Below are positions 10,801 to 59,623 of a stretch of DNA of 64,000 bases, piece after piece (the stretch's first letter is position 1; every line of letters starts with the position of its first letter). A model generated the notes under the pieces. It ran no database searches. It was not told where the DNA came from and saw only the letters and a program-made list of their open reading frames with translations. A program made the translations under genes and the position numbers. This stretch comes from Bacteroidota bacterium (GTDB lineage Bacteria > Bacteroidota > Bacteroidia > NORP154): positions 6,008 through 70,007 of the forward strand of contig JBDRNO010000145.1 of NCBI GenBank assembly GCA_043811005.1, given 5' to 3'.

Positions 10801-11741
10801 CAATAACCATTTCCTCCTGATCCGCCAGCGCCTCCCCCGGAACCGATTCCGTTCTGTCCCGGGAGCCCGTCTGGGGCATCATTCCCTGACCCGAAACAGA
10901 GAGATGTACCGGAACCCCTTGGACCGCCATTACCTCCATTACCACCGCCATTGCTTCCGGGAAATGATCCTGAAGCACCTGCACCGCCTGCCGTACAGCA
11001 ACCTCCATCTCCATCCCCGTTTTGACCATTCAGACCATTTGCGCCATTAACACCGCCTGTCCCGGAAATCCCGTCTGAACCGTCAGTGCCATTGCCGGCA
11101 TTTATATTGCATCGGGTTATAGAATAATTATAACAGCTATCTATTTGGACCCCATAAGTGGTAACTCCATTGCCGACAGCATCTGCAACAATGACAGTAA
11201 GGTCATGCAGCCGGAAATTGCTGATACCTACACATGAGATTGCAACAAGCCGGTTGGGAGCAGTTTGAATATTGGAATTATTACGGTAGATGACAGTAGT
11301 TTGTGAATTGGATTTTATCCAGGTAGTAGGGTCAAAGCCACCTTCCATGGTAACACCGCTTATCAAATTGAGCGTGTTGGAAATTGTATAATTCCCGGCA
11401 GCGAGCCAAAGCTGGTTGTTAAAAGGATTAGCCAGTGACAAGCCATAAGAAAGGCTGGCAGGATTGGTAATAGAGCCGGCAGCTCCACTGGAAGCGCCTG
11501 TCGGAGTGATATAGATGATGTTGCATTGCTGGGGGAAACACAGATTACACAGATTTATGAAGATTACACAGATTATGATAGTTTTCAGTAGCATGGGATT
11601 GAATCGTGAAAATCGGATAAAAAAATTCCGTGGTCCTTTGTGAGAGCCCTGTACCCTCTGTTTTGGAAAATCCAATCCCAGTGAGCGCGGGAAACCCAGA
11701 TATAACGCAGAGAATATAGAAATGACAGGATGATTTTTCAT
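7878..11741 (-). CDS. Secreted glycine-rich, multi-PKD protein with T9SS type B (gliding motility-associated) C-terminal domain; paralogue A
   Basis: GGxGGxG tracts, repeated WDFGDG PKD motifs, C-terminal IPNVFTPN..IFNRWG..GWDG..VTLVR; true start may be ATG 11594. Confidence 0.85.
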   Translation of the reverse strand: MKNHPVISIFSALYLGFPRSLGLDFPKQRVQGSHKGPRNFFIRFSRFNPMLLKTIIICVIFINLCNLCFPQQCNIIYITPTGASSGAAGSITNPASLSYGLSLANPFNNQLWLAAGNYTISNTLNLISGVTMEGGFDPTTWIKSNSQTTVIYRNNSNIQTAPNRLVAISCVGISNFRLHDLTVIVADAVGNGVTTYGVQIDSCYNYSITRCNINAGNGTDGSDGISGTGGVNGANGLNGQNGDGDGGCCTAGGAGASGSFPGSNGGGNGGNGGPRGSGTSLCFGSGNDAPDGLPGQNGIGSGGGAGGSGGNGYCDNICLSMGCDAGSANNGDDGLPGADGAIGANGLPGVPLFSNFFIQGTGQDGQIGEHGSGGGGGGGGGSQGCLWSLFGNYNGAGAGGGGGGEGGQGGSGAAGGTGGGGSFGIYIYANSINTEIKDCYTYSGIPGYGGLGGSPGGASGAGGTGGIGGNQPSSPGYDCDLGVAGDGGTGGTGGTGGNGGNGTPGISLPIFEDPGGIAAAQSDMSSPVEPEIFVKSTGCTYSDIEYTTNATGIILWYFDGGTIPLSATGNSATVQYTIMGRHSITLVVNGVPYIFTDFVGIFSDGTPYLPYVQSADSVICPGDFGSFSSSYAGLAYEWTVYDNTITTYTTPTIIHNFPTDEGTYEVHLQTESPCCGWSKIDTFEVNVVPFLEPGIYVAATSTRICDGDQVTFGAVPVNGGTNPTYQWLVNSSVSGTSSSLTTSALNDGDVVTCIMTSSYPCPLNGVAIAASAPLTINVNPLPIVNCISSKFYLGANTLFGATPTVGTPPFTYNWDFGDSGIDTGATTTHYYGATGTYSYSVSVTDSNGCTGYCNGSLTIVVAPFVAAGFMSNVIQACDSVTVTFIDTSIGNPGSWYWDFGDGTIDTLSGDTVVHTYNTSGAYSVILAATNGVYTDTVTHPNSVMVYASPVAGLSAIEQPGCHPFNPQFLDCSYGATSWQWDFGDGGNSTLQNPNHPYGDTGSYIVTLITGSNNYCYDTASISITSLPSPTAGFSSGDTLVCIESLVQFIDTSSDAISWYWDFGDGNTSIDITPSNTYYYPGSYTVSLTVENQFGCSDILTMPDMITVLPNPVPQFTAVPQLTTNLNPTIYFTDVSTGDSLAGWSWNFDDEYYSDIQNPVHTYADTGSYTVELLVTDKNGCEEVVSLIVRINPDYIFFIPNVFTPNKDELNEVFLPIGEGIDENHYKMYIFNRWGDEIFYTDDPYLGWDGTANDGRELAQSEVYVWLIITRDLLGKTHQYNGHVTLVR

Positions 11742-11743
11742 TA

Positions 11744-13462
11744 TTATTCTATTATTATTCTTCCATTCTCTAACCTTTCATGCATTATTATTAACAAATT
11801 ATAAATACCGGATGGATAGATGGATAGGTCTATTTCGGATTGGGTATCGTAGATTTCGGATTGATAAATTACCTGCCCTAATACATCATATACCTTTATT
11901 TGTACATTCGTAATTCTTGGAAATTCGCAATTCGCAGTAATAGTAAACACGCCCCTGTTTGGATTGGGATAAATCTGAATAATTTTATTTGAAATAATAC
12001 TCCCCACACCTGTTCCCCCTTCTGTTACTGTTATTAAAATAGTATCGGAATAAGAGCATCCATTGCTATCTGTTACAGTAGCATAATAGGTATGTGTTCC
12101 TTCTCCAGCGATTGAACCATCTACTGTTAATGTTGAGTTTGTGGTACTATCATTCCATAAGTAATCAGTATAGCCGGAACCGGCATTTAAAGTAATTGTT
12201 TCATAAGTATAGATAGTTGTATCATTACCTATATTGTATGTTAGATTAATGACCGATAAGGTTGTTGCTATGATGCTGTCACATCCGTCAATTGATGTCA
12301 GTGAATCGTAATAGGTACCTGCTGTGGTTCTCCATGCCCCGGCTATAAAGACACTGTCTCCGTTACAGATTGTATTCATTTGCGGGAAGGTAAAAGTGTC
12401 ATAATTAACACCCCATACTTTGACAATTCTGAAATGTCCGTCATCAAAATCCTTATTTGCATTAGTTTCCGCACCAAGAGCGACCGTACTGGACAAGTCC
12501 CATGTACTTACACCATAAACTTTATCCCGGTGAAGATGCCCGGCAAACCAAATACCGATGCTATCCTTGTATATATCCAGGTAATTTGTGATGGAGTCAT
12601 ATTCACCATAAGAAAAGGCGCTTACAGGTCCCAAGGGGTCTTTTGTAGGAGGGAAGTGTGTAAATATCAGGATATTTTTTTCAGCTTTGGAGGGGTAGTC
12701 AGCTATCTGTTGTTTAAACCATTGCCATGTTCCACCTGGAAAATCCAATAGTTCTGCCTCGGGGCTAACTCCGGAAAAAAAGAGGGGAGCATGTTCGCGT
12801 GTACCGAAATCAGCGAGTACAAAAAAGTAATTTTCATATTCAAAAGAAAAGTTTTGCAGGTATGAATAACACGCTTGATCGGCATTCCAGACCCGGGTAA
12901 GCCTTGTGCCGTTATCCCATCCGGTGAACGTGGCTTGAAGCGTATCAAAATGTTCAGCAAAGATAGTGTTGAATATAGAGTCGCCATTGGGAGAAGGTGA
13001 TTCAACGCTTGAGGCATAAGGCCATACATCGTGATTCCCAATAAGCGGAATATATGGAATTGTTAAAGAATTCAGAATCTCCCTGAATTTGTAAAATTCA
13101 GACATTTCACCACAGTGGGTAAGGTCACCGGTAATTATAACAAATTTTATCTTCAGGTCGTTTGCGTTTTGATTGAGCCAGTTTACAATATTCCTCAGCC
13201 GAATAGCAGGATCGCCGATATCTCCAACCGGCATTGTATCATTGTAGCCCGGTGAGCCGTAATCATCATCCGGAGCACCTTCACCGATATGAACATCTGT
13301 GAGTTGTACAAAGGAAAACTGCCATGAAGAACAAGACAATGTTGTATTGTGTTCGATTATTACCGTATCAGGCAAATTTATTTGTCCTGTACACAGATTA
13401 CACAGATTTAGAAAGATTACACAGATAAGTAATGCTGAGAGAATTATTGTGAATTTTTTCAT
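11744..13462 (-). CDS. Secreted calcineurin-like metallophosphoesterase with T9SS type A C-terminal domain
   Basis: TDVH, TGD, GNHD and GHLH motifs; signal peptide; IYPNP..G.Y CTD. Confidence 0.85.
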   Translation of the reverse strand: MKKFTIILSALLICVIFLNLCNLCTGQINLPDTVIIEHNTTLSCSSWQFSFVQLTDVHIGEGAPDDDYGSPGYNDTMPVGDIGDPAIRLRNIVNWLNQNANDLKIKFVIITGDLTHCGEMSEFYKFREILNSLTIPYIPLIGNHDVWPYASSVESPSPNGDSIFNTIFAEHFDTLQATFTGWDNGTRLTRVWNADQACYSYLQNFSFEYENYFFVLADFGTREHAPLFFSGVSPEAELLDFPGGTWQWFKQQIADYPSKAEKNILIFTHFPPTKDPLGPVSAFSYGEYDSITNYLDIYKDSIGIWFAGHLHRDKVYGVSTWDLSSTVALGAETNANKDFDDGHFRIVKVWGVNYDTFTFPQMNTICNGDSVFIAGAWRTTAGTYYDSLTSIDGCDSIIATTLSVINLTYNIGNDTTIYTYETITLNAGSGYTDYLWNDSTTNSTLTVDGSIAGEGTHTYYATVTDSNGCSYSDTILITVTEGGTGVGSIISNKIIQIYPNPNRGVFTITANCEFPRITNVQIKVYDVLGQVIYQSEIYDTQSEIDLSIYPSGIYNLLIIMHERLENGRIIIE

Positions 13463-29316: not shown

Positions 29317-29439
29317 GCCACTAATTACACGAATTAACACTAATAATTATTGTTTTTTACAACTTAATTTTTCAAAAAATATATTTTGTGAGAATTAGTG
29401 AGAATTAATGTAATTAGTGGCATCCGCCAGCTGGCGGAT
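29317..29439. repeat. Inverted nonamer arrays (CACTAATT/AATTAGTG) abutting an 18-bp perfect palindrome
   Basis: gccactaattacacgaattaacactaat ... gtgagaattagtgagaattaatgtaattagtggc, then atccgccagctggcggat (29422-29439); related unit near 29589-29636. Confidence 0.8.
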
Positions 29440-29690
29440 TAATAAATTTACGAAGTTATGTTCTTTTTAAGTCATAAAGAAAACGTAAAAAAGTGTAATT
29501 TCGCATAATTTTGTGTTTTTTTCTGAATTTCATAAACAAACACAAATTGGTGCCTGGCTCTAAAGCCATTTATCAAAATGATAAAAAATCACAAATTACA
29601 CGAATAAATTGGTGAAAATTAGTGAAATTCGTGGCGAATAAAGATATTGGAAACAACCACTAATTAGATAGAATTTACATTATATTAAAA

Positions 29691-34936: not shown

Positions 34937-35363
34937 TCCCGACAAGCTTGTCGGGATCGATAATTTTGTTGATGTTAATAAACAAGTTGACAGTTGACAG
35001 TATGCGGTTGGCAAAAAATAAATTGCCTACTGTCAATTGCCTACTTGTATCAAGTTTAGTAAAATTTATTTTCCGCTAAAATGGAGCCCTTCGTCCCTCA
35101 GGATAAACTCCGCGGAATTCACGAACACCTTTTCTATTCTCAATTTTCAAAATTATTTTCCAATCCCAATTATCCAACACCAATTTCCAATCTCCATTCT
35201 CCATTCCACACCGCCTCAAAATAAAATTTGACCTAAATCTAATAATCAAGGAAAAAATGATGGAGAATGACAATTGGTATTAAGGAGCGCCATCGTTCAG
35301 AAATTTCCCTGCCCCACACTCCCTGCAATCATGCATCCTTGCATCCTTGCAATCATACAGCCA
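34937..35363. repeat. Mosaic of several miniature repeat families between dnaG and recJ
   Basis: Perfect palindrome tcccgacaagcttgtcggga (34937-34956); inverted heptamers (34983-35047); cccttcgtccctcaggataaactccgcg; heptamers near 35130-35207; octamers tgcaatca/tgcatcct (35324-35363). Confidence 0.75.
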
Positions 35364-37129: not shown

Positions 37130-37274
37130 AATTTTAGCGTGAAAAATTTTTGTAAAATTAGTCATTAAATTTTTAGTATCAGAATTAAAATGTTTGCCAC
37201 GAATTTCACTAATTTTCACTAATTTTTTCTAATTATAATTGTTTAAATATAAAAAAGTGAACCATACAATAAAG

Positions 37275-38066: not shown

Positions 38067-38230
38067 GAACATAAATTTAGTGGAATTTAGTGTTTTTGTG
38101 CCTGGTGGCTAAACATTTAAATTTCGAAACGTATTAAATAGCAACTTGTCAAATAAAAATTTGGTTATTATCTTTTTATATTTATATTTGCCGCCTGAAA
38201 TCAAATTATTAATCTAAAAAAAAATAAGTT

Positions 38231-50327: not shown

Positions 50328-53300
50328 GTGAAACGTTTATTTTATATATCATTGGTTTTTCTGCTTTTTTCCGGAGGAATATTGTCTCTGAAAACATCTT
50401 TTTCGCAAACCTACAATTTTGATAACTTTTCGGTGGAAGATGGTTTGGTGCAAACCCAGGTTCTTTCAATATGCCAGGACAGCAAAGGATACATCTGGTT
50501 CGGGACGAATAGTGGGGGAATAAGCATCTATGACGGCAATAAATTCAGCTCTCTTACTAAATCAGACGGATTGGTGGATAATGTTGTATACTCTATTATT
50601 GAGGGAAAAAACGGCAAAATGTTCATTGGCACTACAGGTGGTTTAAGTGTATATGACGGACATGGTTTCACAAATTATACGGAAACTGATGGGCTTCCGG
50701 ATAATATGGTATTTGCTGTGCTGGAAGATGCGGAAAACAATATCGTTTGGCTTGCTACCACAAAAGGTATTGCAAAACTTGTAGAAGGAAAGATAGAAAT
50801 GTTTGACGGAGGCCCGGCACTGAATGATGTTCACGTATTTACTCTATATAAAGATAAGGAAGGCAATATTTGGTTTGGTACTGTAAATAAGGGAGCTATT
50901 AAATATGATGGGAAGAGTTTTACTGTTTTTAATACCGAAAAAGGACTGACCCATTCTTTTGTATGGACAATTATTGAGGATAAGGATGGCAATATTTGGG
51001 TTGGAACTATAAAAGGTCTTAACATCATAAACAAAAATAATAAAGTAGAGGAAATAAGGATAAATCAAGCAGAATCTCAACGGACAATCACATCTTCAAC
51101 ATTATCAAAAGACGGAGATCTTTGGTTTGGAACTAAAGTGGGGGCTGTTTTCTATGATGGCAGTACGTTCAAAAATTACAGGGAGCAAAACGGGCTTAGT
51201 ACTAATGATATATGGTCAATAATGCAAGACAGGGAGGGCAATATATGGTTTGGAACTATGGGAAAGGGAGTTGTTAAATTCAGGTATAAAGGAGAAGTGT
51301 TTAAAAATTATAGCCGGAAGGATTCCCTTCCTAATGATATGATTCATGTCATTTTTGAAGACAGTAAAGGGGATTATTGGCTTGGTTCCGAATCAGGCAT
51401 TGCCAAGATGACAAACGGGCAAATTAAGGTATTTACCAGAAAGAACGAGGATAATATTAATCTGGGAATTGCCACTAATACATATTCCGTTGCAGAAGAC
51501 CGTTCGGGAAATCTGTGGTTTGCAACAAGAGGTAGTGGCTTGTTCAGATATGATGGTTCTGATTTCAAAAAATACACCATAAATGATGGATTGAATGATA
51601 ATCTTGTCTATTCTATTCTGATTGACAACAAAGGAACAATGTGGTTTGGTACTGCAAAAGGGGTATCAAAAATGGAGAATGGTGAAATATCTGAATTTGG
51701 AGAGATAACAAAAATAAATATTTGGACAATATTCCAGGATAAAGAAAATAATTATTGGTTTGCCACTGAAAAAGGTGCATCAAAATATGACGGTACGAGC
51801 ATGCAGTATTTTACCGGCAAAGACGGTTTTGTTGATGATAGGGTGCTGACAGTTTTGCAGGATAACCAGGGATATTATTGGTTTGCAACCGATGAAGGTG
51901 TATTCTGCTACGATTCAAAAAAATTCAAAAAAATCAGTCAGGATGACGGATTGAGCTTCAATAAAATTTACCTGCTGGTGATGGACAGGAATGGAGACCT
52001 GTGGATAGGAACAACCAAGGGCCTGGACAAATTAGATGTGGAAGCTTATCATTCAAGGAATGAGATTAAACTAATCCATTATGGCAAAGATGAGGGCTTT
52101 ATCGGTTTGGAGTGTAATAGTAATGCCGGCTATAGGGACAGTAAGGGACATTTGTGGTTTGGTACGGCAAAAGGGGTAACCATCTTTAATCCCGATTTGG
52201 AGACAACCAATACAGAGGAGCCATTAACAAGCATTACCAATATCCGCCTGGAATTTGAGGATTTTGATTGGACAGAATTTTACGATACGATTGACCTGGT
52301 AACGAAACTACCCGTGAACCTTACACTTCCCCACAATAAAAATCACCTTACGTTCGATTATATCGGTGTGAGCATGACCATTCCAAAAAAGGTGAAATAT
52401 CAGTACAAACTGGTTCCGTTAGAAGATTATTGGCTACATGCAACCGATAAAAATGAAGCCGTTTATTCTCATATTCCTCCGGGGGAATATACATTTATGG
52501 TAAAGGCGATGAATAATGACGGGCTTTGGAACAAGCAGCCGGTAGAGTTTCTTTTCAGGGTCCTGCCTCCCTGGTATCAAACGTGGTGGTTTTACACGCT
52601 TTGTGTTGTAGTTGCATTTGCCGGTGTTTATTCTTTTATAACAATAAGAATGCGTAATCTTCAAAAACAGAAAAGAGTGCTGGAGGAGAAAGTGCTTAAA
52701 AGAACAGCAGAATTAAGGAAAGAAAAGGAAAAAGTGGAGCAGAGTAATATAGAAATTAGTAAAAAGAACAAGATCATTGAGACAAAGAACAAAGACATCA
52801 CCGATAGTATCGCTTACGCCAAGCGCATACAAGAGGCAATTCTTCCCTTGGACAATGAAAGATTGCGGCATTTTCCAGAATCATTTATTCTTTTTAAACC
52901 TAAGGATATTGTAAGTGGTGATTTTTATTGGCTTACTAAAAAGGATGAAATTGCAATCATAGCAGCAGCGGATTGTACAGGACACGGGGTTCCGGGTGCA
53001 TTTATGTCAATGATCGGCAATTCACTATTAAATGAAATAGTAATTGAAAAAGGTAATACCAAACCGGCAAAGATATTAGATGCTATGAAAGAGGGTATTA
53101 TCAATGCCTTGAAGCAAAAGGGCGAATCCGGTGAACAAAAAGATGGGATGGATATTGGGCTACTCGCTTTGAATTATTCAAAAAATACTGCTGAGTTTGC
53201 CGGGGCATACAACTCCTTGCTCCTGGCAAGAAAAGGCGAGCTGGAAGAAATAAAAGCTGATCGTATGCCCATAGGAATTTTCGAGGATGATGGCGGAAAA

Positions 53301-53570
53301 AGATTTACTAATCAACTTATTGAACTCCAAAAAGGAGATACCCTTTACATTTTTTCTGATGGATATACAGACCAGTTTGGGGGTCATAAAGGGAAAAAAT
53401 TTAGGAGCAATCGATTTAAACAACTGATTCTTGACATACAACCCATGAGTATGGATGATCAAAAGGCATGTTTAGATAAAACAATAGAAGACTGGAAAGC
53501 TCACAATGACCAGGAAGGCAACATTTACGAGCAGTTGGATGATATATTGGTGATAGGTGTCAGGGTTTGA
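50328..53570 (+). CDS. Membrane sensor: periplasmic beta-propeller + Y_Y_Y + TM + SpoIIE/PP2C phosphatase
   Basis: Many D..G.IWFGT repeats, PPWYQTWWF TM, VSGDFYW, DCTGHGVPGA, FSDG, DDILV. Confidence 0.93.
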   Translation: MKRLFYISLVFLLFSGGILSLKTSFSQTYNFDNFSVEDGLVQTQVLSICQDSKGYIWFGTNSGGISIYDGNKFSSLTKSDGLVDNVVYSIIEGKNGKMFIGTTGGLSVYDGHGFTNYTETDGLPDNMVFAVLEDAENNIVWLATTKGIAKLVEGKIEMFDGGPALNDVHVFTLYKDKEGNIWFGTVNKGAIKYDGKSFTVFNTEKGLTHSFVWTIIEDKDGNIWVGTIKGLNIINKNNKVEEIRINQAESQRTITSSTLSKDGDLWFGTKVGAVFYDGSTFKNYREQNGLSTNDIWSIMQDREGNIWFGTMGKGVVKFRYKGEVFKNYSRKDSLPNDMIHVIFEDSKGDYWLGSESGIAKMTNGQIKVFTRKNEDNINLGIATNTYSVAEDRSGNLWFATRGSGLFRYDGSDFKKYTINDGLNDNLVYSILIDNKGTMWFGTAKGVSKMENGEISEFGEITKINIWTIFQDKENNYWFATEKGASKYDGTSMQYFTGKDGFVDDRVLTVLQDNQGYYWFATDEGVFCYDSKKFKKISQDDGLSFNKIYLLVMDRNGDLWIGTTKGLDKLDVEAYHSRNEIKLIHYGKDEGFIGLECNSNAGYRDSKGHLWFGTAKGVTIFNPDLETTNTEEPLTSITNIRLEFEDFDWTEFYDTIDLVTKLPVNLTLPHNKNHLTFDYIGVSMTIPKKVKYQYKLVPLEDYWLHATDKNEAVYSHIPPGEYTFMVKAMNNDGLWNKQPVEFLFRVLPPWYQTWWFYTLCVVVAFAGVYSFITIRMRNLQKQKRVLEEKVLKRTAELRKEKEKVEQSNIEISKKNKIIETKNKDITDSIAYAKRIQEAILPLDNERLRHFPESFILFKPKDIVSGDFYWLTKKDEIAIIAAADCTGHGVPGAFMSMIGNSLLNEIVIEKGNTKPAKILDAMKEGIINALKQKGESGEQKDGMDIGLLALNYSKNTAEFAGAYNSLLLARKGELEEIKADRMPIGIFEDDGGKRFTNQLIELQKGDTLYIFSDGYTDQFGGHKGKKFRSNRFKQLILDIQPMSMDDQKACLDKTIEDWKAHNDQEGNIYEQLDDILVIGVRV

Positions 53571-53572
53571 TT

Positions 53573-53628
53573 CGATGGAATGTTGGAATGTTGGAAAGAT
53601 GGAATATTGGAAAGATGGAGTGTTGGAA
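53573..53628. repeat. Left octamer tandem array, 7 units ending TGGAA
   Basis: cgatggaa tgttggaa tgttggaa agatggaa tattggaa agatggag tgttggaa. Confidence 0.9.
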
Positions 53629-53655
53629 TGATGATTAATGTAATTTAAAGTTTAA

Positions 53656-54786
53656 ATGAAACGGTTAACCTTCCTAATATTCATTGTACCAATGCTTGCT
53701 TTGGGACAAGAAAAACGTGGATACATTGACGAAAATGGATGGAAACAAGGAGTTTTCAAGGAATATTATTCTAATGGAAATGTAGAATTTATTCGAACAT
53801 ATAGAAATGATACTTTAAATGGCTTTTTAGGGTGTTATCACAAAGATGGCAGCAAGAAAAGTGAAGAATACCGAAGAAATGGAGAAATAGATAGTATTTG
53901 CATTGAATACTACTATGGAAGCAATATAGTGGAAAAGAAAAGTTTTTATAAATCGGCAAAAAAAAATGGTGAATTTATTTACTATTATGAAAGCGGGAAG
54001 ATCAGTTACAATGCAACTTTTCAAAATGACACTTTAGTTGGTAATGAAACCTATTTCTTTGAAAATGGAAAAATTCAAGCTTCAGGAAACCGAAGAAATG
54101 GAACATGGAAAGCTTATTGTTCCAATGGACAATTAACATTAGAACAAAAATTCAGAAATAGCAGATTAGTTGGTGAAACAAAACTATATGCTGATGACGG
54201 TAAATTATTGATTCCAACTTTTATTAAAGAGAAAGAAATTAAATCAGACACTTCAATTATTAATGAAACAGACTTAAAAGTGTTCATCTTATTTGACCAG
54301 TACAACAAAAAAGACAGATTACTTAAATTTAGAGAATCTTTGTTCTATGGTGCAAAAGTTTGTAAAAAAGAAAATTTAATAATACAGATAGGCAGAGAAA
54401 TTTTTATTGTAAAAAGAAATGGAGTAGAAATTCATGAAACTTTAGAGGTGAATTGTGAGAATGAAATTGAAACCAAAAAGTATGGTATTAACAGAGAGGT
54501 CAAGGAATTACCAAGTGGTAAAAGGGATGTCAAATACGTAAATGAAAAAATAATTCATAAGATTGGATTGGGAAATCTGGAAGTAGAAAGAAAACGATTG
54601 AAATGTGATGATACCGGGACAAATCCTATAACAATTTATAGAAACGGAAAAAAATTAGAATTCAAAGAAATTGATAACTTGCAATTCTTTGAATTTGACA
54701 CGGATTCAAACGGGAAAAATGAACTATATGTATTAACATATCGAAGCTGTAGCGGTCTTTTGAGAATTTATAAAATAGATGAATAA
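53656..54786 (+). CDS. Exported MORN-variant repeat protein (YwqK-like)
   Basis: Signal peptide; repeats KQGVFKEYYSNG, NGEFIYYYESG, YFFENG. Confidence 0.8.
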   Translation: MKRLTFLIFIVPMLALGQEKRGYIDENGWKQGVFKEYYSNGNVEFIRTYRNDTLNGFLGCYHKDGSKKSEEYRRNGEIDSICIEYYYGSNIVEKKSFYKSAKKNGEFIYYYESGKISYNATFQNDTLVGNETYFFENGKIQASGNRRNGTWKAYCSNGQLTLEQKFRNSRLVGETKLYADDGKLLIPTFIKEKEIKSDTSIINETDLKVFILFDQYNKKDRLLKFRESLFYGAKVCKKENLIIQIGREIFIVKRNGVEIHETLEVNCENEIETKKYGINREVKELPSGKRDVKYVNEKIIHKIGLGNLEVERKRLKCDDTGTNPITIYRNGKKLEFKEIDNLQFFEFDTDSNGKNELYVLTYRSCSGLLRIYKIDE

Positions 54787-55192
54787 AAGAAAAAATATTA
54801 ATCGTGGATTTAAGAAACTTCGGGTGTGGCAGGATGCCGTTACACTATATGTTTTAGCTTGTAAAATATTATCTAAATTTCCGTTTGAACTAAAAAAGGC
54901 AGCTGCTAACAGTATTGATGCGTCACACAGCATTTCGCGAAATATAGCGGAGGGGAATTGTAGAAGAAGTATTAAGGAATATTTAAATTATCTGAATATA
55001 TCACTTGCATCATGTGGTGAATTTCATTCTTCTTATTGTAGCTTTTATCAGGCAAAACAAATCACAGAAGATGAATTCGAACAACTTGATGAACTGCATT
55101 ATAAAGTTGAGAACCAACTGCTAAAACTTATTGAATCGCTACAAAAGAAACAGAAAATTGGAGATTGGGAGGATACTTTTTATCAGAGTTAA
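54779..55192 (+). CDS. Four-helix-bundle protein (23S rRNA IVP / TIGR02436-like)
   Basis: FKKLRVWQ, SISRNIAEG, YLNISLASCGE motifs. Confidence 0.9.
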   Translation: MNKRKNINRGFKKLRVWQDAVTLYVLACKILSKFPFELKKAAANSIDASHSISRNIAEGNCRRSIKEYLNYLNISLASCGEFHSSYCSFYQAKQITEDEFEQLDELHYKVENQLLKLIESLQKKQKIGDWEDTFYQS

Positions 55193-55296
55193 TTCCACTG
55201 TTCCAACATTCCATCATTCCATCATTCCATCTTTCCATCTTTCCATTATTCCATCATTCCAATATTCCATCATTCCAATATTCCAATATTCCAATT
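55193..55296. repeat. Right octamer tandem array, 13 x TTCCANNN, reverse complement of the left array
   Basis: ttccactg ttccaaca ttccatca ttccatca ttccatct ttccatct ttccatta ttccatca ttccaata ttccatca ttccaata ttccaata ttccaatt. Confidence 0.92.
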
Positions 55297-55360: not shown

Positions 55361-58300
55361 TCACACCGGCCATTCCCTCGGCTTATCATAGCCCTTAATT
55401 TTAGCATATTCCCTTGCCTGGTGCATGAACGCCTCAAGCCGTGTTTCAATACCGGTATCGTCCTGGCCATCATAAGCAATATTTTCCCATGGAATATTAT
55501 CGTGGTCTTTTCTAAAGACATGGGAAACCGACTCTATGAGTGTCCCGGGCAAGCACGAAAAGGGCAGGATATTAACAATGCCCGAGATCCCTGTATTAGT
55601 GAGACCCGCTGCAGACCCGATCGCAATTGCAGGGTCTCCATCGTAATCTTTATGGACATAAGGCCCGCATAGGTCAAGCATCTCTTTTACGGGGATTTCC
55701 CTCTCCAATTCAGCAGCATCTCCAATTGCATTATGATACTTTTTGGCTGAGACGCTCTGTGAGAATTGCTGGGTTTTTGACTTAAAGAGCCCTTTTATAT
55801 CCCTTTTCCATATACTGTCCCTTGTATAGCGGTAGGTTGAATAGGAAATCCATTCAGCAAAAGGCGCAATAAGCGTTTCAGCGCCCATCTCTTCAAGCTT
55901 CTGTACAAGAAAACCGCTGCAGTATGGATTATCCCGCATAAATATCTCACCCACAATAGAAACAACGGGTTTTCTTATACCATTGGCAACTTTAATTCCC
56001 TTAAATGCCTTTGCTGCCTGTTTAAGAACTTCTGCAAGGTCCTTAGTGCCTCTCTCAACAGAGGATATCACCTCTTGAAGCCAGTGTTGATATACCCTGT
56101 CGGTCTCTCCTTTAACAACTTCGTAAGGTCTTCTCTCCTGCAGTAATTTGCGAAGCAGGTCAATCGCAACAAAACCCTTCCATGCACCAAAGCGGAATTT
56201 CGTTCCTTTACCACCTGAAATATCTTCGTAAGAATTTTCGTCACTGGGAGAAATAAGATTAACATCATGAAAACCAGCCCGGTTAAAAATTATCTTCTGC
56301 AGTTTATTATATTGACCAAAACGGCAGGGTCCATTGTGGTCTGGCATGAAAAAACTTACTTTCTTAGGGTCGCAACCCGGTTCCATCAGCTTTTTCAGAA
56401 AACTGCCTGTTGTGCATATCATAGGGAAACACTCCCTGGATGAGGTGTATTTTCTGCCAAGTTCAATATCTGTTTCATCCTGTTTGGGTAAAACCTCCGC
56501 ATGGATACCGCAACTTCGGCATGCGGCAGCCATAGCATACCCGCCATCGCACATATAGGGGACATAAAGCACTCTGTCTGCAGTAGGCGCGGAAAGCAAT
56601 TTGCCCGGGCGATAGATCTTTTCTTTTTCTATATTAACCTTCCGGTATCCTTTAAGACTGTCAAGAAAAGCTTCGCACCTGGTGAGCATACCCGCATCAG
56701 CGCTGTGTTCATCAACTTCGATCTGAAGATATGGCTTTCCACGCATCTCTTCACGCACATAATGGGAAAGGAAGGAATCAGGACCGCACTTGAAATTACC
56801 GAGATAAACAGCATGAAGACGGGCATCCTTGGCTATTATTCGTGAGCCGGAAATTATTTTCTGCCCGTTTGGCCAATACATCTTGGTGTAGTTATTAAAA
56901 ATATACTCGTTATCAAGTGGAAGAAAATCAACCGGTATGGGAAGAACATCCAGGTTGATCAGCTTTTCAGCGAGGCGAAGATTTAACTCCGGATCACCGG
57001 TATTGTATGGCCTGCCAAGAATAACAAGCGCCTCCTTGTCCTGCGGGAGATCGTTCAGCGCCTCTTGTCCCCTGATCTCAACAGCTCTCTCAAAGGCATC
57101 TTGTGCCTCGTCTGCTGACCTTATTGCTTTTACTACTTTTGATTTGGAAATACCGAATTTTTCACTCATAAAGCGGGAGAGCTCTTTGTTCAGCATTCTG
57201 CCGGTATAACGAAAATGAAGTGTCGGGATCAGGAGCTTTTCTTTATCTTTATTATCTGCGAGAGCCGCACGTATCATAAACGGATATGATTGTATCCATG
57301 GGCAGTTACAGTTACTTGTAGGATTATTCTTAGCTGCTTTTTGATTAACTATAAAGGGGGTAAAGACATAATCAACATTTTTCTTTAACAGGTCATGAAC
57401 ATGTCCATGCATGATCTCCACCGGCAAGCACGTCTCGGTAGCCAGTAGTTCAAGCGATTTTGCGACCATCGGGCGGTCGGTAGGGGATGACAGGACGACA
57501 TGAAAGCCCAGTTCACGGAAGAAAGTGCGCCAAAAAGGAAATTGCTGGTAAAAGATAGAGAGTCCGCGCGTGATACCAATAGTTATCCTGTTATTTTTTG
57601 CCTCCTTTTCATAGTCACCTAAAAGCAGCTTCAGGCGTTCTTCAAAAAGATTTGGAATATCCTTTCCTTTGCCCTTCCGCTCTTTTATCTCGAATTTTTC
57701 GCAACGCCCTCCATAAAAAAGAGATTTTTTGCTTCCTTCGATCTTTACTCTCCGTATTTCACACCGGTTAGAGCATGGTTCTTTTTTGTCATTAAACTTT
57801 GCCTTACATGTGAATTTATCTATTGAAAATGATGTTTTACTTATATTAAAGGTTTTAAATCGCGTTTTTGCACCAATTTCGTTATTCATCTTGTCTCTGG
57901 CGAGCATTGCTACACCAATAGCTCCGGTAACATCAAAATGAGGTGGTACGATTACCGGTTTCCCAAGGATTTTTTCAAAAGCGGCAACAACTGCCTTGTT
58001 GTTGGTTACACCCCCCTGAAAGAAAATTTTATTTCCAATACGCTTGTCGCCTACAACCTTCTGTAAATAATTTTGAACTATTGAGTATGCCAGCCCGCCA
58101 ACCAGGTCTTCTTTAGGAACACCTTTTTGCTGGTGTGAGTTAAGATCAGATTCCATAAAGACCGTACATCTGTCACCGAGCCGTACCGGCTTCTGTGCGT
58201 TAAGAGCCATCTTGCCGAACTCTTCTTTAATGTTTATCTTAAGCTTTTCTGCCTGCTCTTCCAAAAAGGAGCCGGTTCCTGCCGCACAAACCTTGTTCAT

Positions 58301-59623
58301 CTCGAAATCTACGACAACACCGCTTTCAACACTTATATACTTTGAATCCTGTCCCCCGATCTCAAAAATGGTATCAACTGATTGGTCATAATAAATAGTA
58401 GCTGTAGCTTGTGCGGTGATCTCATTTTGGATGATGTCGGCACCGATGAAATCTCCTGTCAGGTAACGACCCGAGCCTGTTGTCCCGGCAGCTTTTACTT
58501 CTACTTTATCCCCAACCTCTTCATAGATCTCGGATAAGCCACTTTGTATTGCATCAAGGGGTTTGCTTGCTGTTGGCAGATACCTTCGTGCAACCACATT
58601 GTTCTCATCATCAATTAAAACCACGTTGGTGCTAAGGGAGCCGACATCGAGACCGAGGTAAACACCGAGTTTCTCACTTCCGTTCCATTTAAGGACTATA
58701 TTATCCGGATACCTGTTACCGGACAATTTCAGCGGTTCCAGGTGAGAGCTGTCAGGTTTTTCATTAGTAAGATAAATATTAAGCTCTTTCAATCCCTTAA
58801 AAGGTTTTTCTGCCCCGGGAGGATGGTCGAGGATGTGAAACAGAGCGCCAATAGCGCCCATTGAGGCATGGTATTTCGGAATTATTAGATCGTCTTCCTT
58901 CAGGTTAAGGATTTCCCTGAAAGCACGAACCACACCGGCATTGGCAGCAACCCCTCCCTGGAAGATCACTGGTTTGGCAAGCTCTTTACCACGAGCCATA
59001 ATGCTCTTAAAATTACGGGCTACCGCAAAACACAAGCCGGCTACAATATCATGAACAGGTGTGGCAATCTGCTGGAGATGGATCATATCACTTTTGGCAA
59101 ACACACTGCACCTTCCGGCAATGTGTGGCGGGTTTTCCGATTTAAGGGCTAATTCGCCAAATTCATTTTCAATTGACACACCAATTCTTTTTGCCTGCTG
59201 GTCAAGGAAAGAGCCGGTGCCGGCTGCACAAAGGGTGTTCATAGCGAAATCAGACAAGCTGGATTTATGATCGACCTCTTTTCCTTCCATAAGTATGAGC
59301 TTGGAGTCCTCTCCACCTATTTCAATGACCGAATTGGCTTTGGGATATAAAACAGCTACGGAAGAGGATTGGGCAATTATCTCATTCACAAAATGACCCC
59401 CGATAAACTCTGCCGCAAGCTTGCCCCCGGTGCCGGTTATGGCTGTAATACCAATCTTTTCCGTCCCGTGTGACTCTATGATCTCTGAAAGGATATCTTT
59501 TAAAACAAGAAATGGCTTGCCGTGACAATAATTATAGCGATTCTCAACTATGTTCCTGTCTTTATCAATCAGTACCGTGTTGATTGATATAGAGCCGATA
59601 TCTAATCCTAAATGTAACTTCAT
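55361..59623 (-). CDS. Fused 2-hydroxyacyl-CoA dehydratase activator-like protein (two BcrAD/BadFG ATPase modules + DUF2229-like regions)
   Basis: Two sets of GLD.GS, EIGG.DSK, CAAGTGSFL and RC.VF motifs; CGPDS, PFSCLPG. Confidence 0.9.
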   Translation of the reverse strand: MKLHLGLDIGSISINTVLIDKDRNIVENRYNYCHGKPFLVLKDILSEIIESHGTEKIGITAITGTGGKLAAEFIGGHFVNEIIAQSSSVAVLYPKANSVIEIGGEDSKLILMEGKEVDHKSSLSDFAMNTLCAAGTGSFLDQQAKRIGVSIENEFGELALKSENPPHIAGRCSVFAKSDMIHLQQIATPVHDIVAGLCFAVARNFKSIMARGKELAKPVIFQGGVAANAGVVRAFREILNLKEDDLIIPKYHASMGAIGALFHILDHPPGAEKPFKGLKELNIYLTNEKPDSSHLEPLKLSGNRYPDNIVLKWNGSEKLGVYLGLDVGSLSTNVVLIDDENNVVARRYLPTASKPLDAIQSGLSEIYEEVGDKVEVKAAGTTGSGRYLTGDFIGADIIQNEITAQATATIYYDQSVDTIFEIGGQDSKYISVESGVVVDFEMNKVCAAGTGSFLEEQAEKLKINIKEEFGKMALNAQKPVRLGDRCTVFMESDLNSHQQKGVPKEDLVGGLAYSIVQNYLQKVVGDKRIGNKIFFQGGVTNNKAVVAAFEKILGKPVIVPPHFDVTGAIGVAMLARDKMNNEIGAKTRFKTFNISKTSFSIDKFTCKAKFNDKKEPCSNRCEIRRVKIEGSKKSLFYGGRCEKFEIKERKGKGKDIPNLFEERLKLLLGDYEKEAKNNRITIGITRGLSIFYQQFPFWRTFFRELGFHVVLSSPTDRPMVAKSLELLATETCLPVEIMHGHVHDLLKKNVDYVFTPFIVNQKAAKNNPTSNCNCPWIQSYPFMIRAALADNKDKEKLLIPTLHFRYTGRMLNKELSRFMSEKFGISKSKVVKAIRSADEAQDAFERAVEIRGQEALNDLPQDKEALVILGRPYNTGDPELNLRLAEKLINLDVLPIPVDFLPLDNEYIFNNYTKMYWPNGQKIISGSRIIAKDARLHAVYLGNFKCGPDSFLSHYVREEMRGKPYLQIEVDEHSADAGMLTRCEAFLDSLKGYRKVNIEKEKIYRPGKLLSAPTADRVLYVPYMCDGGYAMAAACRSCGIHAEVLPKQDETDIELGRKYTSSRECFPMICTTGSFLKKLMEPGCDPKKVSFFMPDHNGPCRFGQYNKLQKIIFNRAGFHDVNLISPSDENSYEDISGGKGTKFRFGAWKGFVAIDLLRKLLQERRPYEVVKGETDRVYQHWLQEVISSVERGTKDLAEVLKQAAKAFKGIKVANGIRKPVVSIVGEIFMRDNPYCSGFLVQKLEEMGAETLIAPFAEWISYSTYRYTRDSIWKRDIKGLFKSKTQQFSQSVSAKKYHNAIGDAAELEREIPVKEMLDLCGPYVHKDYDGDPAIAIGSAAGLTNTGISGIVNILPFSCLPGTLIESVSHVFRKDHDNIPWENIAYDGQDDTGIETRLEAFMHQAREYAKIKGYDKPREWPV

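What the first reader, a model, noticed from the sequence alone, without database searches (positions are those of the whole stretch)
53573..55296. Four-helix-bundle cassette bounded by inverted octamer arrays: candidate mobile unit without a transposase
Seen: seven octamers ending TGGAA start 3 nt after the sensor stop. Thirteen TTCCANNN octamers start immediately after the four-helix-bundle stop. The two arrays are reverse complements, with a near-fixed TTCCA core and a variable trinucleotide. They enclose exactly two overlapping genes, an AT-rich MORN-variant exported protein and the four-helix-bundle protein. Known: this family (TIGR02436-like) has no established function and shares a fold with Avd, the accessory protein of diversity-generating retroelements. 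Inference: the arrays are cis-acting ends or an RNA duplex recognised by the helix-bundle protein, and the MORN gene is cargo.
Basis: partly seen in the sequence, partly recalled or inferred. Interest (0 to 1): 0.85.

Follow-up and report, generated by a model that had tools for sequence, protein, structure and literature searches.

The report
Helix-bundle gene inside inverted repeat arrays
A small four-helix-bundle gene of unknown function sits between two mirror-image arrays of 8-base repeats, and the same gene-plus-arrays package recurs in very different bacteria, which suggests a small mobile unit with no transposase gene inside it here.

Summary
Seven NNNTGGAA octamers (53573-53633) and thirteen TTCCANNN octamers (55193-55296) are reverse complements. 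They enclose two overlapping genes: a MORN-repeat gene and a PF05635/TIGR02436 four-helix-bundle (4HB) gene.

This is not a local oddity:
- In this genome 4HB genes are strongly enriched between complementary flanks.
- 5 of 31 inverted-array loops hold a 4HB gene; 0 of 92 non-inverted loops do.
- Close homologues of this 4HB (56-81% identity) in other phyla carry the same arrays, TGGAA upstream and TTCCA downstream. More distant ones carry compensatory variants (TGGAG/CTCCA).
- Nostoc and Riemerella 4HB genes show the same design with other units.
- Orthologous loci in relatives differ in presence or absence of the gene.
- Dispersed ORF-less TGGAA/TTCCA hairpins occur almost only in genomes that hold this 4HB subfamily.

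Best reading: an element like the 23S rRNA intervening sequence (IVS), but lying outside rRNA. Its stem is built of tandem units, and it is inherited and transferred as one package, with the MORN gene as cargo.

Not shown: RNase III processing, binding of the arrays by the 4HB protein, and how the unit moves. In one deltaproteobacterial clade an IS91-like transposase gene lies inside the arrays. No paper making this link was found in the library searched.

The parts
50328..53570 (+). Upstream neighbour (context, not part of the unit): sensor-type protein with Reg_prop propeller repeats, Y_Y_Y and SpoIIE phosphatase domains. Its stop lies 2 nt before the left array.
   Evidence: ORF; Pfam (Reg_prop 218.8 bits, SpoIIE 64.6 bits, Y_Y_Y 57.4 bits).
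53573..53633 (+). Left array: seven octamers NNNTGGAA (one is TGGAG) plus a short tail. It is the 5' arm of the long stem.
   Evidence: Sequence; TRF; duplex with the right array -86.2 kcal/mol against -34.9 +/- 4.8 for shuffles, and 54 long-range pairs in the MFE fold.
53656..54786 (+). MORN-repeat-variant protein of 376 aa. Its N-terminus looks hydrophobic and signal-like by eye (MKRLTFLIFIVPMLALGQ; no signal-peptide tool was run). Probable cargo inside the loop. Its stop overlaps the 4HB start by 8 nt.
   Evidence: ORF; MORN_2 44.9 bits. GC 29.5% is the 1.8th percentile of genes over 600 nt. Only distant hits (<=40% identity, N-terminal repeats only) in 300 genomes of the phylum. 0 hits in 67 other 4HB loci.
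54779..55192 (+). [quoted passage not shown]
   Evidence: PF05635 63.1 bits (cut-off 33.8) and TIGR02436 61.3 bits (cut-off 24). AF2 model pLDDT 92.2 with four long helices. Foldseek: 2gsc TMt 0.93-0.95, 2rld, Avd 4dwl TMt 0.87.
55193..55296 (+). Right array: thirteen octamers TTCCANNN starting at the base after the 4HB stop. It is the 3' arm of the stem.
   Evidence: Sequence; TRF; duplex and fold.
55361..59623 (-). Downstream neighbour (context): convergent BcrAD_BadFG/DUF2229 CoA-enzyme activase.
   Evidence: ORF; Pfam.

Best explanation
The segment 53573-55296 is one co-inherited, horizontally mobile cassette of the type known from intervening sequences (IVS) of 23S rRNA. A 4HB (S23p/Avd-fold) gene is carried in the loop of a long stem. 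Here the stem arms are inverted arrays of a short tandem unit, TGGAANNN on the 5' side and TTCCANNN on the 3' side, and the cassette lies between protein genes rather than in rRNA.

Shown:
- The arrays are complementary.
- This gene subfamily carries these same arrays across phyla.
- The two arms change together in diverged copies.
- The unit is present or absent at orthologous sites.
- ORF-less hairpins of the same unit are dispersed in just those genomes that hold the cognate gene.

Inferred:
- The cassette is transcribed by read-through from the upstream gene.
- The two arrays pair in the RNA into a duplex of about 55 bp.
- RNase III cuts that duplex, as it cuts the 28-bp stem of the Coxiella IVS, releasing the MORN-4HB message.
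- The 4HB oligomer binds the repeated core, as Avd binds an RNA stem-loop.
- The MORN gene was captured into the loop as cargo.

How the unit moves is unknown. Candidates are recombination into resident hairpins of the same unit, or trans-acting enzymes.
For: 1. Complementarity.

2. Own genome.
- Flank duplex energy was computed for 2707 crude genes. Of the 16 4HB genes, 13 could be tested; 3 were dropped (two pseudogenes, one at a contig end). 8 of the 13 rank in the top 142 and 10 of the 13 in the top 215 (binomial p 5.8e-8 and 2.3e-9).
- Six 4HB loci have same-period arrays on both sides that are inverted within 1 mismatch.
- 5 of 31 inverted-array loops (gap 60-1000 nt) hold a 4HB gene, against 0 of 92 non-inverted loops (Fisher p 7.9e-4).

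3. Family relatives: by my reading of the 24 loci, at least 10 have visibly inverted degenerate arrays.

4. Across phyla.
- The closest homologues (71-81% aa identity) are in Desulfobacterota-type, KSB1, Calditrichaceae and Fischerbacteria assemblies, and one at 66% in Balneolaceae. Most of these are closer than the same-family copies (69%, 62%).
- 19 of 24 loci have at least 3 TGGAA upstream and at least 2 TTCCA downstream. Of the five exceptions, two are cut by contig ends, one has an IS91-like ORF in between, and two carry compensatory variants: TGGAG/CTCCA, and GGGGAAAA/TTTTCCCC.
- 24 of 28 periodic TGGAA arrays lie within 200 nt upstream of the 4HB gene: 23 as the script classed them, plus one (L146) that abuts the start codon and was misclassed. 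24 of 28 periodic TTCCA arrays lie within 300 nt downstream. These flanks make up 8.8% of the bases.

5. Complete records: Nostoc edaphicum, N. punctiforme and Riemerella 4HB genes all show inverted arrays of other units, 3 of 3 inspected out of 12 plasmid hits.

6. Gain and loss at the surE-X-lpxB locus. The 4HB is present in G001, G003 and G005. G006 keeps an array remnant. G000 has an ORF-less hairpin. G004 has a 43-nt spacer. G002 has no spacer. Two further loci are present in a relative and absent in G000.

7. Co-occurrence of a run of three TGGAA octamers with the subfamily 4HB.
- Family: 3 of 3 genomes with the gene against 0 of 5 without it, with 54-161 matches against 0.
- Phylum sample: 3 of 5 against 4 of 295 (Fisher p 7.7e-5).

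8. RNA level: ORF-less hairpins in co-directional gaps fold more stably on the sense strand, 30 against 13 (Wilcoxon p 0.007).

9. Precedents, from passages read. In Coxiella the S23p ORF is bordered by a 28-bp stem cut by RNase III (PMC4990558). The Avd pentamer binds an 11-bp RNA stem-loop (bioRxiv 10.1101/2023.10.23.563531).
Against: - There are no expression or processing data: no RNA run is listed, and promoter and terminator scans are at chance level.
- For 4HB flanks the sense-versus-antisense test is not significant: 21 against 13, p 0.23. The hairpin signal could come from strand-biased mutation rather than selection.
- Array pairs as far apart as the window's are inverted only at the background rate. 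A second gene between the left array and the 4HB gene was seen in none of the other loci whose flanks were read. MORN itself has no hit in 67 other loci.
- Unit-to-protein co-variation is not strict. C250 and C247 are 78% identical but carry different units. The largest array family of G000 (CCCAG heptamers) has no clean cognate 4HB. G107 and G277 hold subfamily genes (41% and 35% identity) but no TGGAA arrays. Four genomes have 5 or more array matches without a detected gene.
- Some 4HB genes show no clear arrays, and L099 has arrays in direct orientation.
- Presence or absence could reflect deletion only; G006 clearly lost the gene.
- In the deltaproteobacterial assembly the multi-copy unit has its own sharp ends and an IS91-like gene, which could account for its mobility there.
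- The genomes compared are related, and assemblies break at arrays: 104 of 620 contig ends have an array within 150 nt.
Confidence: 0.6

Rival explanations
1. DNA-level element. The arrays are hairpin-forming ends used in single-stranded DNA by a trans-acting HUH-type transposase (IS91/Y2 or IS200/Y1 family) or by host recombination. The 4HB protein is an accessory factor or a passenger. Pairing is selected in DNA, not RNA.
For: - In one deltaproteobacterial assembly a 1.6-kb unit made of [TGGAA array - 4HB - IS91-family transposase fragment - TTCCA array] occurs at 6 or more sites. The copies are 99.3-99.8% identical, have sharp junctions and show no target duplication.
- IS91-like sequence lies next to the 4HB gene in 9 of 67 loci.
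- ORF-less hairpins of the same unit are dispersed like MITEs or REPINs; the C220 and C266 copies share flanking sequence.
- The sense-strand advantage of 4HB flanks is not significant.
Against: - No Y2 transposase was found in the own genome (tblastn). The genome is 83% complete, and the family control rang nowhere.
- The two Y1 transposase genes found are not next to arrays. The one inspected is flanked by GC-rich REP palindromes of another kind.
- In the deltaproteobacterial element the conserved ends lie outside the arrays, so the arrays are not its termini.
- Most loci, 58 of 67, have no transposase sequence nearby.
Confidence: 0.2
2. The arrays are generic intergenic hairpins of this lineage, like cyanobacterial STRR sequences. 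They would act on transcript stability, termination or translational coupling. 4HB genes merely tend to insert into, or survive in, such hairpin loops, and gene and arrays have no functional tie.
For: - The genome holds 1370 short-period arrays of at least 2.8 copies, and 76% are non-genic.
- Inverted neighbours are frequent: 58 of 148 at a gap under 100 nt.
- Most array families and most hairpins have no 4HB gene.
- STRR hairpins between genes are known in Nostoc and Anabaena, with function unknown (PMC2670836, passages).
Against: - The same TGGAA/TTCCA unit stays with this 4HB subfamily across phyla at 56-81% protein identity.
- TGGAA arrays are absent from the 5 family genomes that lack the gene and abundant in the 3 that have it.
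- The phylum sample agrees.
Confidence: 0.12
3. The two arrays in the window are unrelated neighbours. The right array belongs to the 4HB gene. The left array is an independent repeat after the sensor gene, and MORN is an ordinary resident gene.
For: - Inverted matches at 700-4000 nt are at the background rate.
- TGGAA-type arrays occur at 20 or more other places in the genome.
- No other locus whose flanks were read has a gene between the left array and the 4HB gene.
Against: - Every intact homologue has a TGGAA array upstream, and here there is none between MORN and the 4HB gene, because the two genes overlap.
- Solo TGGAA arrays in this genome normally have their TTCCA partner within about 40 nt, and the left array has none.
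- The MORN gene has foreign composition.
Confidence: 0.06

Closest known systems
23S rRNA intervening sequences (IVS) that encode S23p (Leptospira, Coxiella, Xanthomonas, Brucella)
   Same: - Same protein family (PF05635).
- Same architecture: the ORF lies in the loop of a stem formed by complementary termini. In Coxiella that stem is 28 bp and is cut by RNase III (PMC4990558, passages).
- Patchy distribution attributed to horizontal transfer, and an old proposal that the IVS is mobile (same paper, citing Ralph and McClelland 1993, which I did not read).
   Different: - The unit here is not in rRNA; it lies between protein-coding genes.
- The stem arms are arrays of a 7-10-nt tandem unit, 7 and 13 octamers in the window, rather than a unique inverted repeat.
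- A second gene is carried in the loop.
- ORF-less copies are dispersed in the genome.
- RNase III cleavage is untested here.
REPIN-RAYT systems.
   Same: - A single gene is flanked by inverted copies of a short repeat.
- Many ORF-less inverted doublets of the same repeat are dispersed in the genome.
- Gene and repeat co-occur across genomes.
- Different gene subfamilies go with different repeats.
   Different: - The gene is a 4HB protein, not an HUH Y1 transposase.
- The repeats are tandem arrays of 7-10-mers, not single REP palindromes.
- The genome's own RAYT-like gene sits among separate GC-rich REP palindromes.
Cyanobacterial STRR (short tandemly repeated repetitive) heptamer hairpins
   Same: Tandem 7-nt units in intergenic regions can form hairpins, for example between hupS and hupL. 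Their function is unknown (PMC2670836, passages). Two Nostoc plasmid 4HB genes are flanked by such heptamer arrays in inverted orientation.
   Different: In the papers I could search, STRR sequences are not linked to any gene family. Here arrays of 6-10-nt units in a non-cyanobacterial genome are tied to 4HB genes.
Avd, the accessory protein of diversity-generating retroelements
   Same: Same fold: 4dwl TMt 0.87, rmsd 1.9 A. Avd is a positively charged pentamer that binds an RNA stem-loop through flipped-out bases (bioRxiv 10.1101/2023.10.23.563531, passages). PF05635 is treated as the Avd-like family (PMC10053308, passage).
   Different: No reverse transcriptase, template repeat or variable repeat lies nearby. 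The only RT match in the genome is on another contig and contains a stop codon.
IS91-family insertion sequences
   Same: In a deltaproteobacterial assembly the same array-4HB module lies inside a multi-copy element. That element encodes Zn_Tnp_IS91 and part of Y2_Tnp, has sharp ends and makes no target duplication.
   Different: The window and 58 of 67 other loci have no such gene. None was found in the own genome.

Membership tests
TIGR02436 / PF05635 four-helix-bundle (23S rRNA IVS protein) family | Profile score above the curated cut-off | tested here: met
   TIGR02436 61.3 bits (cut-off 24); PF05635 63.1 bits (cut-off 33.8).
TIGR02436 / PF05635 four-helix-bundle (23S rRNA IVS protein) family | Four-helix-bundle fold like XCC0516 (2gsc) and BT_0352 (2rld) | tested here: met
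   AF2 model pLDDT 92.2. Foldseek 2gsc TMt 0.93-0.95 at rmsd 0.7-0.9 A; 2rld TMt 0.77-0.86.
TIGR02436 / PF05635 four-helix-bundle (23S rRNA IVS protein) family | Homopentameric ring | not tested
   No oligomer prediction was run. The pentamer is known for 2gsc and Avd from the literature.
23S rRNA intervening sequence (IVS) element | Inserted in a helix of the 23S rRNA gene | tested here: not met
   The unit lies between a sensor gene and a CoA-activase gene.
23S rRNA intervening sequence (IVS) element | S23p ORF bordered by complementary termini that form a long stem | tested here: met
   Duplex -86.2 kcal/mol against -34.9 +/- 4.8 for shuffles; 54 long-range pairs in the MFE fold.
23S rRNA intervening sequence (IVS) element | Excision of the stem-loop by RNase III | not testable with these tools
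   No RNA run is listed; contigs only.
Diversity-generating retroelement (Avd component) | Adjacent reverse transcriptase with template and variable repeats | tested here: not met
   There is one RVT_1 match in the genome, on contig C293 and containing a TGA stop. None of the 16 4HB genes is on that contig.
REPIN-RAYT-like system | Gene flanked by inverted repeats, with dispersed ORF-less inverted doublets of the same repeat | tested here: met
   At least 12 TGGAA-loop-TTCCA hairpins without an ORF in G000.
REPIN-RAYT-like system | Co-occurrence of gene and repeat across genomes | tested here: met
   Family: 3 of 3 against 0 of 5. Phylum sample: 3 of 5 against 4 of 295. The genomes are related, so this is not a clean statistic.
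REPIN-RAYT-like system | The gene is an HUH Y1 (IS200-like) transposase | tested here: not met
   The gene is PF05635, not PF01797. The Y1_Tnp genes of the genome lie elsewhere.
Classical transposon or MITE | Target-site duplication at the outer edges | tested here: not met
   No direct repeat at the window's array edges, nor at 5 junction pairs of the deltaproteobacterial multi-copy unit.
Classical transposon or MITE | Transposase gene inside, or found in trans | tested here: not met
   The only ORFs inside are MORN and 4HB. No IS91-type gene was found in the genome. The genome is 83% complete.
STRR-type short tandem repeat hairpins | Intergenic tandem units of about 7 nt able to form hairpins | tested here: met
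   1370 arrays of period 5-10, 76% non-genic. 58 of 148 close same-period neighbours are inverted.

The most novel reading that the evidence does not exclude
4HB (S23p/Avd-fold) proteins are the trans-acting partners of a transposase-free system that resembles REPIN-RAYT. Each subfamily recognises its own short unit (here TGGAA). It drives the birth, spread or maintenance of tandem-unit hairpins across the genome.

Under this reading, the STRR heptamer arrays of cyanobacteria, the 7-8-mer arrays of this lineage and the S23p-bearing IVS of 23S rRNA are products of one class of mobile element. The element can also carry cargo genes in its loop.
Probability: 0.3. Interest if true: 0.92.

Novelty: new variant of a known kind. 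Interest (0 to 1): 0.8.

Why it matters
The 4HB/S23p family is large and widespread, and it has had no function since it was found in 23S rRNA intervening sequences. Short tandem repeat arrays (STRR) in cyanobacteria have likewise remained unexplained.

The data here tie the two together:
- 4HB genes sit inside inverted arrays of a subfamily-specific unit.
- Gene and arrays cross phyla together.
- Dispersed hairpins of the unit track the presence of the gene.

This turns both puzzles into testable questions. Does the protein bind its unit? Is the stem an RNase III site? Does the gene control the number of arrays?

It would also define a small mobile package that moves without a transposase gene of its own and can hold cargo. 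Practically, these arrays break assemblies (104 of 620 contig ends in this genome lie within 150 nt of one).

Tried and rejected
Empty site at the window's own locus.
- The activase C-terminus found no orthologue in 40 relatives.
- The best metagenome relatives are 67% identical and have no sensor, MORN or 4HB next to the activase in the 30 loci listed.
- The test was therefore done at loci of related copies instead.

Expression.
- No RNA holder is listed.
- The one DNA run (X1, contigs) has two exact short pieces at 52646-52796 and 55377-55700, but no contig spans the cassette.
- No conclusion was drawn from either.

Promoter and terminator scan: at chance level.

Strand tests for RNA-level pairing.
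- 4HB flanks: 21 against 13, not significant.
- Hairpins: 30 against 13. This is kept as weak evidence only.

RAYT idea. The Y1 transposase at G000:C158 has strongly complementary flanks, but they are GC-rich REP palindromes, not arrays. Rejected as the driver.

Other small ORFs with complementary flanks.
- 17 were scanned.
- 14 have no Pfam hit.
- The other three match Y1_Tnp, ParE and a GNAT fragment.
- This gave no further lead.

Second array family. CCCAG heptamers give 56 matches in G000, 10 in G005 and 0 in the other six family genomes, with no clean cognate 4HB. This does not support 'one 4HB per array family'.

MORN homologues: only distant repeat-region hits.

Reverse-transcriptase link: one RT with an internal stop codon, on another contig.

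Literature.
- No paper held both members of these term pairs: 'four helix bundle protein' + heptanucleotide; 'rRNA intervening sequence protein' + 'tandem repeats'.
- No paper held TIGR02436, nor 'S23 ribosomal' + repeats + flanked.
- PF05635 gave one paper and 'S23 ribosomal protein' gave one.
- 'Avd-like' / 'four-helix bundle' / mobile gave nothing relevant.
- The STRR search gave fingerprinting and hairpin mentions only.
- The family-name phrase gave 7 papers, none about flanking repeats as far as the listing and passages show.
- A figure legend in PMC10910872 lists '23S rRNA IVP' among proteins associated with CRISPR adaptation modules. I saw only the legend.

Full report
1. WHAT IS THERE

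The sensor ORF (50328-53570; Reg_prop, Y_Y_Y and SpoIIE domains) ends in TGA. Two bases later seven octamers begin, six ending TGGAA and one ending TGGAG (53573-53633).

A 376-aa MORN_2 protein is encoded at 53656-54786. A 137-aa PF05635/TIGR02436 four-helix-bundle (4HB) protein is encoded at 54779-55192. The two genes overlap by 8 nt. Thirteen TTCCANNN octamers follow the 4HB stop directly (55193-55296). A convergent CoA-activase gene ends at 55361.

The arrays pair. RNAduplex gives -86.2 kcal/mol, against -34.9 +/- 4.8 for 200 shuffles. The MFE fold of the whole 1.75-kb RNA keeps 54 long-range pairs between them.

A T9SS sorting domain in a neighbouring gene suggests a Bacteroidota genome.

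2. THE PATTERN ACROSS THE GENOME

The window lies in a 4.6-Mb, 310-contig assembly that is 83% complete and holds 16 TIGR02436 matches. Tandem Repeats Finder (TRF) finds 1370 non-overlapping arrays of period 5-10 with at least 2.8 copies, mostly of period 7 and 8, and 76% are non-genic.

Same-period neighbouring arrays were scored as inverted if their units matched within 1 mismatch:

| Gap between the two arrays | Inverted pairs |
|---|---|
| under 100 nt | 58 of 148 |
| 100-300 nt | 20 of 95 |
| 300-700 nt | 6 of 60 |
| 700-4000 nt | 23 of 495 |
| random pairs (background) | 4.65% |

Short hairpins made of tandem units are thus a common intergenic feature of this genome. Array pairs as far apart as the window's are not enriched by unit match alone.

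3. 4HB GENES ARE WHAT FILLS THE LARGE LOOPS

- Locus maps and the pair list show six 4HB loci with same-period arrays on both sides that are inverted within 1 mismatch: C230, C124, C250, C273, C137 and the window.
- Among adjacent pairs with a gap of 60-1000 nt, 5 of 31 inverted loops hold a 4HB gene. These are 5 of the 6 loops longer than 300 nt. Among non-inverted loops the count is 0 of 92 (Fisher p 7.9e-4).
- A unit-free test computed the RNA duplex energy between the 170-nt upstream and downstream flanks of 2707 crude gene calls. The 13 testable 4HB genes rank 11, 24, 44, 53, 55, 80, 102, 142, 174, 215, 435, 2191 and 2489. Three of the 16 were dropped: two pseudogenes and one at a contig end.
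- The last rank, 2489, is the window's 4HB taken alone, because its left flank is the MORN gene. The two-gene cassette as a whole gives -111.9 kcal/mol.
- 15 of the 16 4HB genes are co-directional with their upstream neighbour, against 73% for all gene pairs. By my own arithmetic this excess is only marginal.

4. RELATIVES AND OTHER PHYLA

In seven genomes of the same family, six hold 4HB genes. By my reading of the 24 flanks, at least ten show inverted degenerate arrays, one (L099) has direct arrays, and several show none.

The window's protein is closest to G001:C80 (69% identity), G005:C298 (62%) and G003:C252 (46-48%). The G001 and G005 copies carry the same units, NNNTGGAA upstream and TTCCANNN downstream, with very long downstream arrays.

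A scan of one genome per species returned 37 loci. The best matches, 71-81% identical, come from Desulfobacterota-type, Syntrophorhabdus, KSB1, Calditrichaceae and Fischerbacteria assemblies, with one at 66% from Balneolaceae. Most are closer than the same-family copies, which points to horizontal transfer.

I tabulated 24 of those loci:
- 19 have at least 3 TGGAA within 160 nt upstream and at least 2 TTCCA within 200 nt downstream.
- L131 and L132 are cut by contig ends.
- L142 has an IS91-like ORF before the right array.
- L155 (56% identity) has TGGAG upstream and CTCCA downstream.
- L166 (35% identity) has GGGGAAAA-type units upstream and TTTTCCCC downstream.
- L154 mixes TGGAT/ATCCA with TGGAA/TTCCA.

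Over the 127,378 bases of these loci, 24 of 28 periodic TGGAA arrays lie within 200 nt upstream of the 4HB gene. That is 23 as the script classed them, plus L146, whose array abuts the start codon and was misclassed. 24 of 28 periodic TTCCA arrays lie within 300 nt downstream. These flanks are 8.8% of the bases.

Further copies fit the pattern. G167 (60% identity) and G053 (42%) have the same arrays. G107 (41%) has a plain inverted repeat instead.

In complete, named records three other unit types appear with the same design (3 inspected of 12 plasmid hits):

| Record | Upstream of the 4HB gene | Downstream of the 4HB gene |
|---|---|---|
| Nostoc edaphicum pNe_5 | GGGAACA units | TGTTCCC units |
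| N. punctiforme pNPUN01 | GGGTGTG units | CCCACAC/CCTACAC units |
| Riemerella plasmid | GGTTTAA/GGTTCAA-type units | AACCTT-type units |

The arms therefore co-vary to keep complementarity, while the core stays fixed within a subfamily.

5. GAIN AND LOSS

The three closest family copies lie in a different context from the window's: surE, a small membrane protein X, the 4HB, then lpxB. I compared that site across the eight family genomes:

| Genome (genus) | State between X and lpxB |
|---|---|
| G001 (g2) | arrays and 4HB |
| G003, G005 (g4) | arrays and 4HB |
| G006 (g2) | two TTCCA units plus a tail homologous to G001's right flank: a deletion derivative |
| G004 (g2) | 43-nt spacer, no arrays |
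| G002 (g3) | stop of X overlaps the lpxB start |
| G000 (own genome) | 183-nt gap holding an ORF-less inverted-array hairpin |
| G007 | lpxB not found |

Two more loci hold a 4HB gene in a relative but not in G000. One of them leaves a short array in G000.

The same gene lineage with the same units thus occupies different sites in different genera. No relative close enough exists to test the window's own site.

6. DISPERSED ORF-LESS HAIRPINS TRACK THE GENE

G000 holds at least 12 TGGAA-loop-TTCCA hairpins without an ORF, and two of them share flanking sequence.

I searched for a run of three TGGAA octamers.

| Sample | Result |
|---|---|
| Family: G000, G001, G005 | 55, 54 and 161 matches |
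| Family: the other five genomes | 0 matches |
| Phylum (300 genomes), with a subfamily 4HB | G167 34, G053 16, G209 13, G107 0, G277 0 |
| Phylum, 295 genomes without one | four have 5-12 matches; the rest have 3 or fewer |

The three family positives are exactly the genomes whose 4HB is at least 62% identical to the window's. In the phylum sample the three richest genomes are the three with the closest genes (Fisher p 7.7e-5). The genomes are related to one another, so these p-values overstate the case.

A second family, the CCCAG heptamers, gave no such clean link.

7. THE PROTEIN

The AF2 model (pLDDT 92.2) is a four-helix bundle. Foldseek finds 2gsc (TMt 0.93-0.95), 2rld (BT_0352) and Avd 4dwl (TMt 0.87), as well as the Avd chains of the DGR ribonucleoprotein.

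E58 and E81 are invariant, and S51 is nearly so, in 30 aligned sequences.

No reverse transcriptase lies near any 4HB gene.

8. MECHANISM

Shown: one co-inherited and horizontally transferred package of arrays plus the 4HB gene, with selection on arm complementarity and on a subfamily-specific core.

Inferred by analogy:
- The family's name-giving copies sit in 23S rRNA as an ORF in the loop of a stem cut by RNase III (PMC4990558, passages).
- Avd binds an RNA stem-loop (bioRxiv 10.1101/2023.10.23.563531, passages).

I therefore favour an RNA-level stem that RNase III processes out of a read-through transcript, with the 4HB oligomer binding the repeated core.

Weak support comes from ORF-less hairpins between co-directional genes, which fold better on the sense strand (30 against 13, Wilcoxon p 0.007). 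The same test on 4HB flanks is not significant (21 against 13). Strand-biased mutation could mimic the signal.

A DNA-level role is the main rival. In one deltaproteobacterial assembly the module lies inside a 1.6-kb element that encodes an IS91-family transposase fragment. That element is present at 6 or more sites at 99.3-99.8% identity, with sharp ends outside the arrays and no target duplication. No such gene was found in the own genome.

9. THE MORN GENE

- Its GC content is 29.5%, the 1.8th percentile of genes, against 37.8% for the genome.
- It has only distant homologues, restricted to the repeat region.
- It occurs in none of 67 other 4HB loci.
- It replaces the short leader that elsewhere separates the left array from the 4HB start.

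Cargo is the simplest reading, but it rests on this one case.

10. NOVELTY

The parts are known: the 4HB/S23p family, IVS stems and STRR hairpins (PMC2670836, passages). My ten searches of the held library found no paper linking 4HB genes with flanking tandem arrays. Supplementary files and subscription journals were not searchable.

I file this as a new variant of a known kind: an IVS-type element outside rRNA, with array stems, cargo and dispersed ORF-less copies. The bolder REPIN-RAYT-like reading stays open.

Noticed in passing
window 35155-35280: Another ORF-less hairpin of tandem units: TCCAATC/TCCATTC heptamers at 35155-35206, with a partial inverted partner (GATGGAGAATG...AATTGG) about 50 nt downstream.
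   Followed up: partly
window 29388-29419, 29606-29627, 37204-37234, 38074-38092: Four arrays of a 10-nt unit of the AATTAGTGAT family, in both orientations (TRF). The family has 23 arrays genome-wide and no 4HB gene flanked by it.
   Followed up: no
window 11538-11578 and 13390-13426: 9-nt ACACAGATT arrays in direct orientation. They lie inside two large minus-strand ORFs (7878-11741 and 11744-13462), so they are coding repeats, not part of this phenomenon.
   Followed up: partly
G000:C158:15334-15780 (L177): An IS200-like Y1 transposase (Y1_Tnp, 89.7 bits) embedded among GC-rich REP-type palindromes. It is a RAYT-like gene with its own, separate repeat family. A second Y1_Tnp lies at G000:C164:3859-4239.
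   Followed up: partly
L147-L152, L160 (one deltaproteobacterial assembly); element at L147:2835-4447: A 1.6-kb multi-copy element (6 or more sites, 99.3-99.8% identical) that combines the TGGAA array, a 4HB gene interrupted by a 38-nt GC-rich palindromic insert, a truncated IS91-family transposase and the TTCCA array. L150 and L151 diverge from L147 after about position 4133 and match its next 100 nt again at about 6330. I read this as an insert of about 2.2 kb and did not examine it.
   Followed up: partly
G000:C91:7634-7818 (L122/L123): An ORF-less inverted-array hairpin (GGAAATAG-type and CTATACC-type units) at the exact site between the small membrane protein X and lpxB where relatives carry a 4HB gene.
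   Followed up: yes
L134, L139, L145, L159: After the 4HB stop a second TGGAA array is followed by a short loop and then the TTCCA array. The 3' arm can therefore pair either locally or with the far upstream array. These could be alternative structures.
   Followed up: no
G000:C293:1228-1893 (L198): The only reverse-transcriptase match of the genome (RVT_1, 153 bits). It has an in-frame TGA and lies on a 3.4-kb contig.
   Followed up: no
G000, all contigs: 104 of 620 contig ends have a short-period array within 150 nt, so these arrays are a major cause of assembly breaks. G005 breaks inside the long TTCCA array next to its 4HB gene.
   Followed up: partly
PMC10910872, figure legend: '23S rRNA IVP' is listed among proteins newly associated with CRISPR adaptation modules. 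I saw only the legend. Whether flanking repeat arrays contribute to that score is unknown.
   Followed up: no
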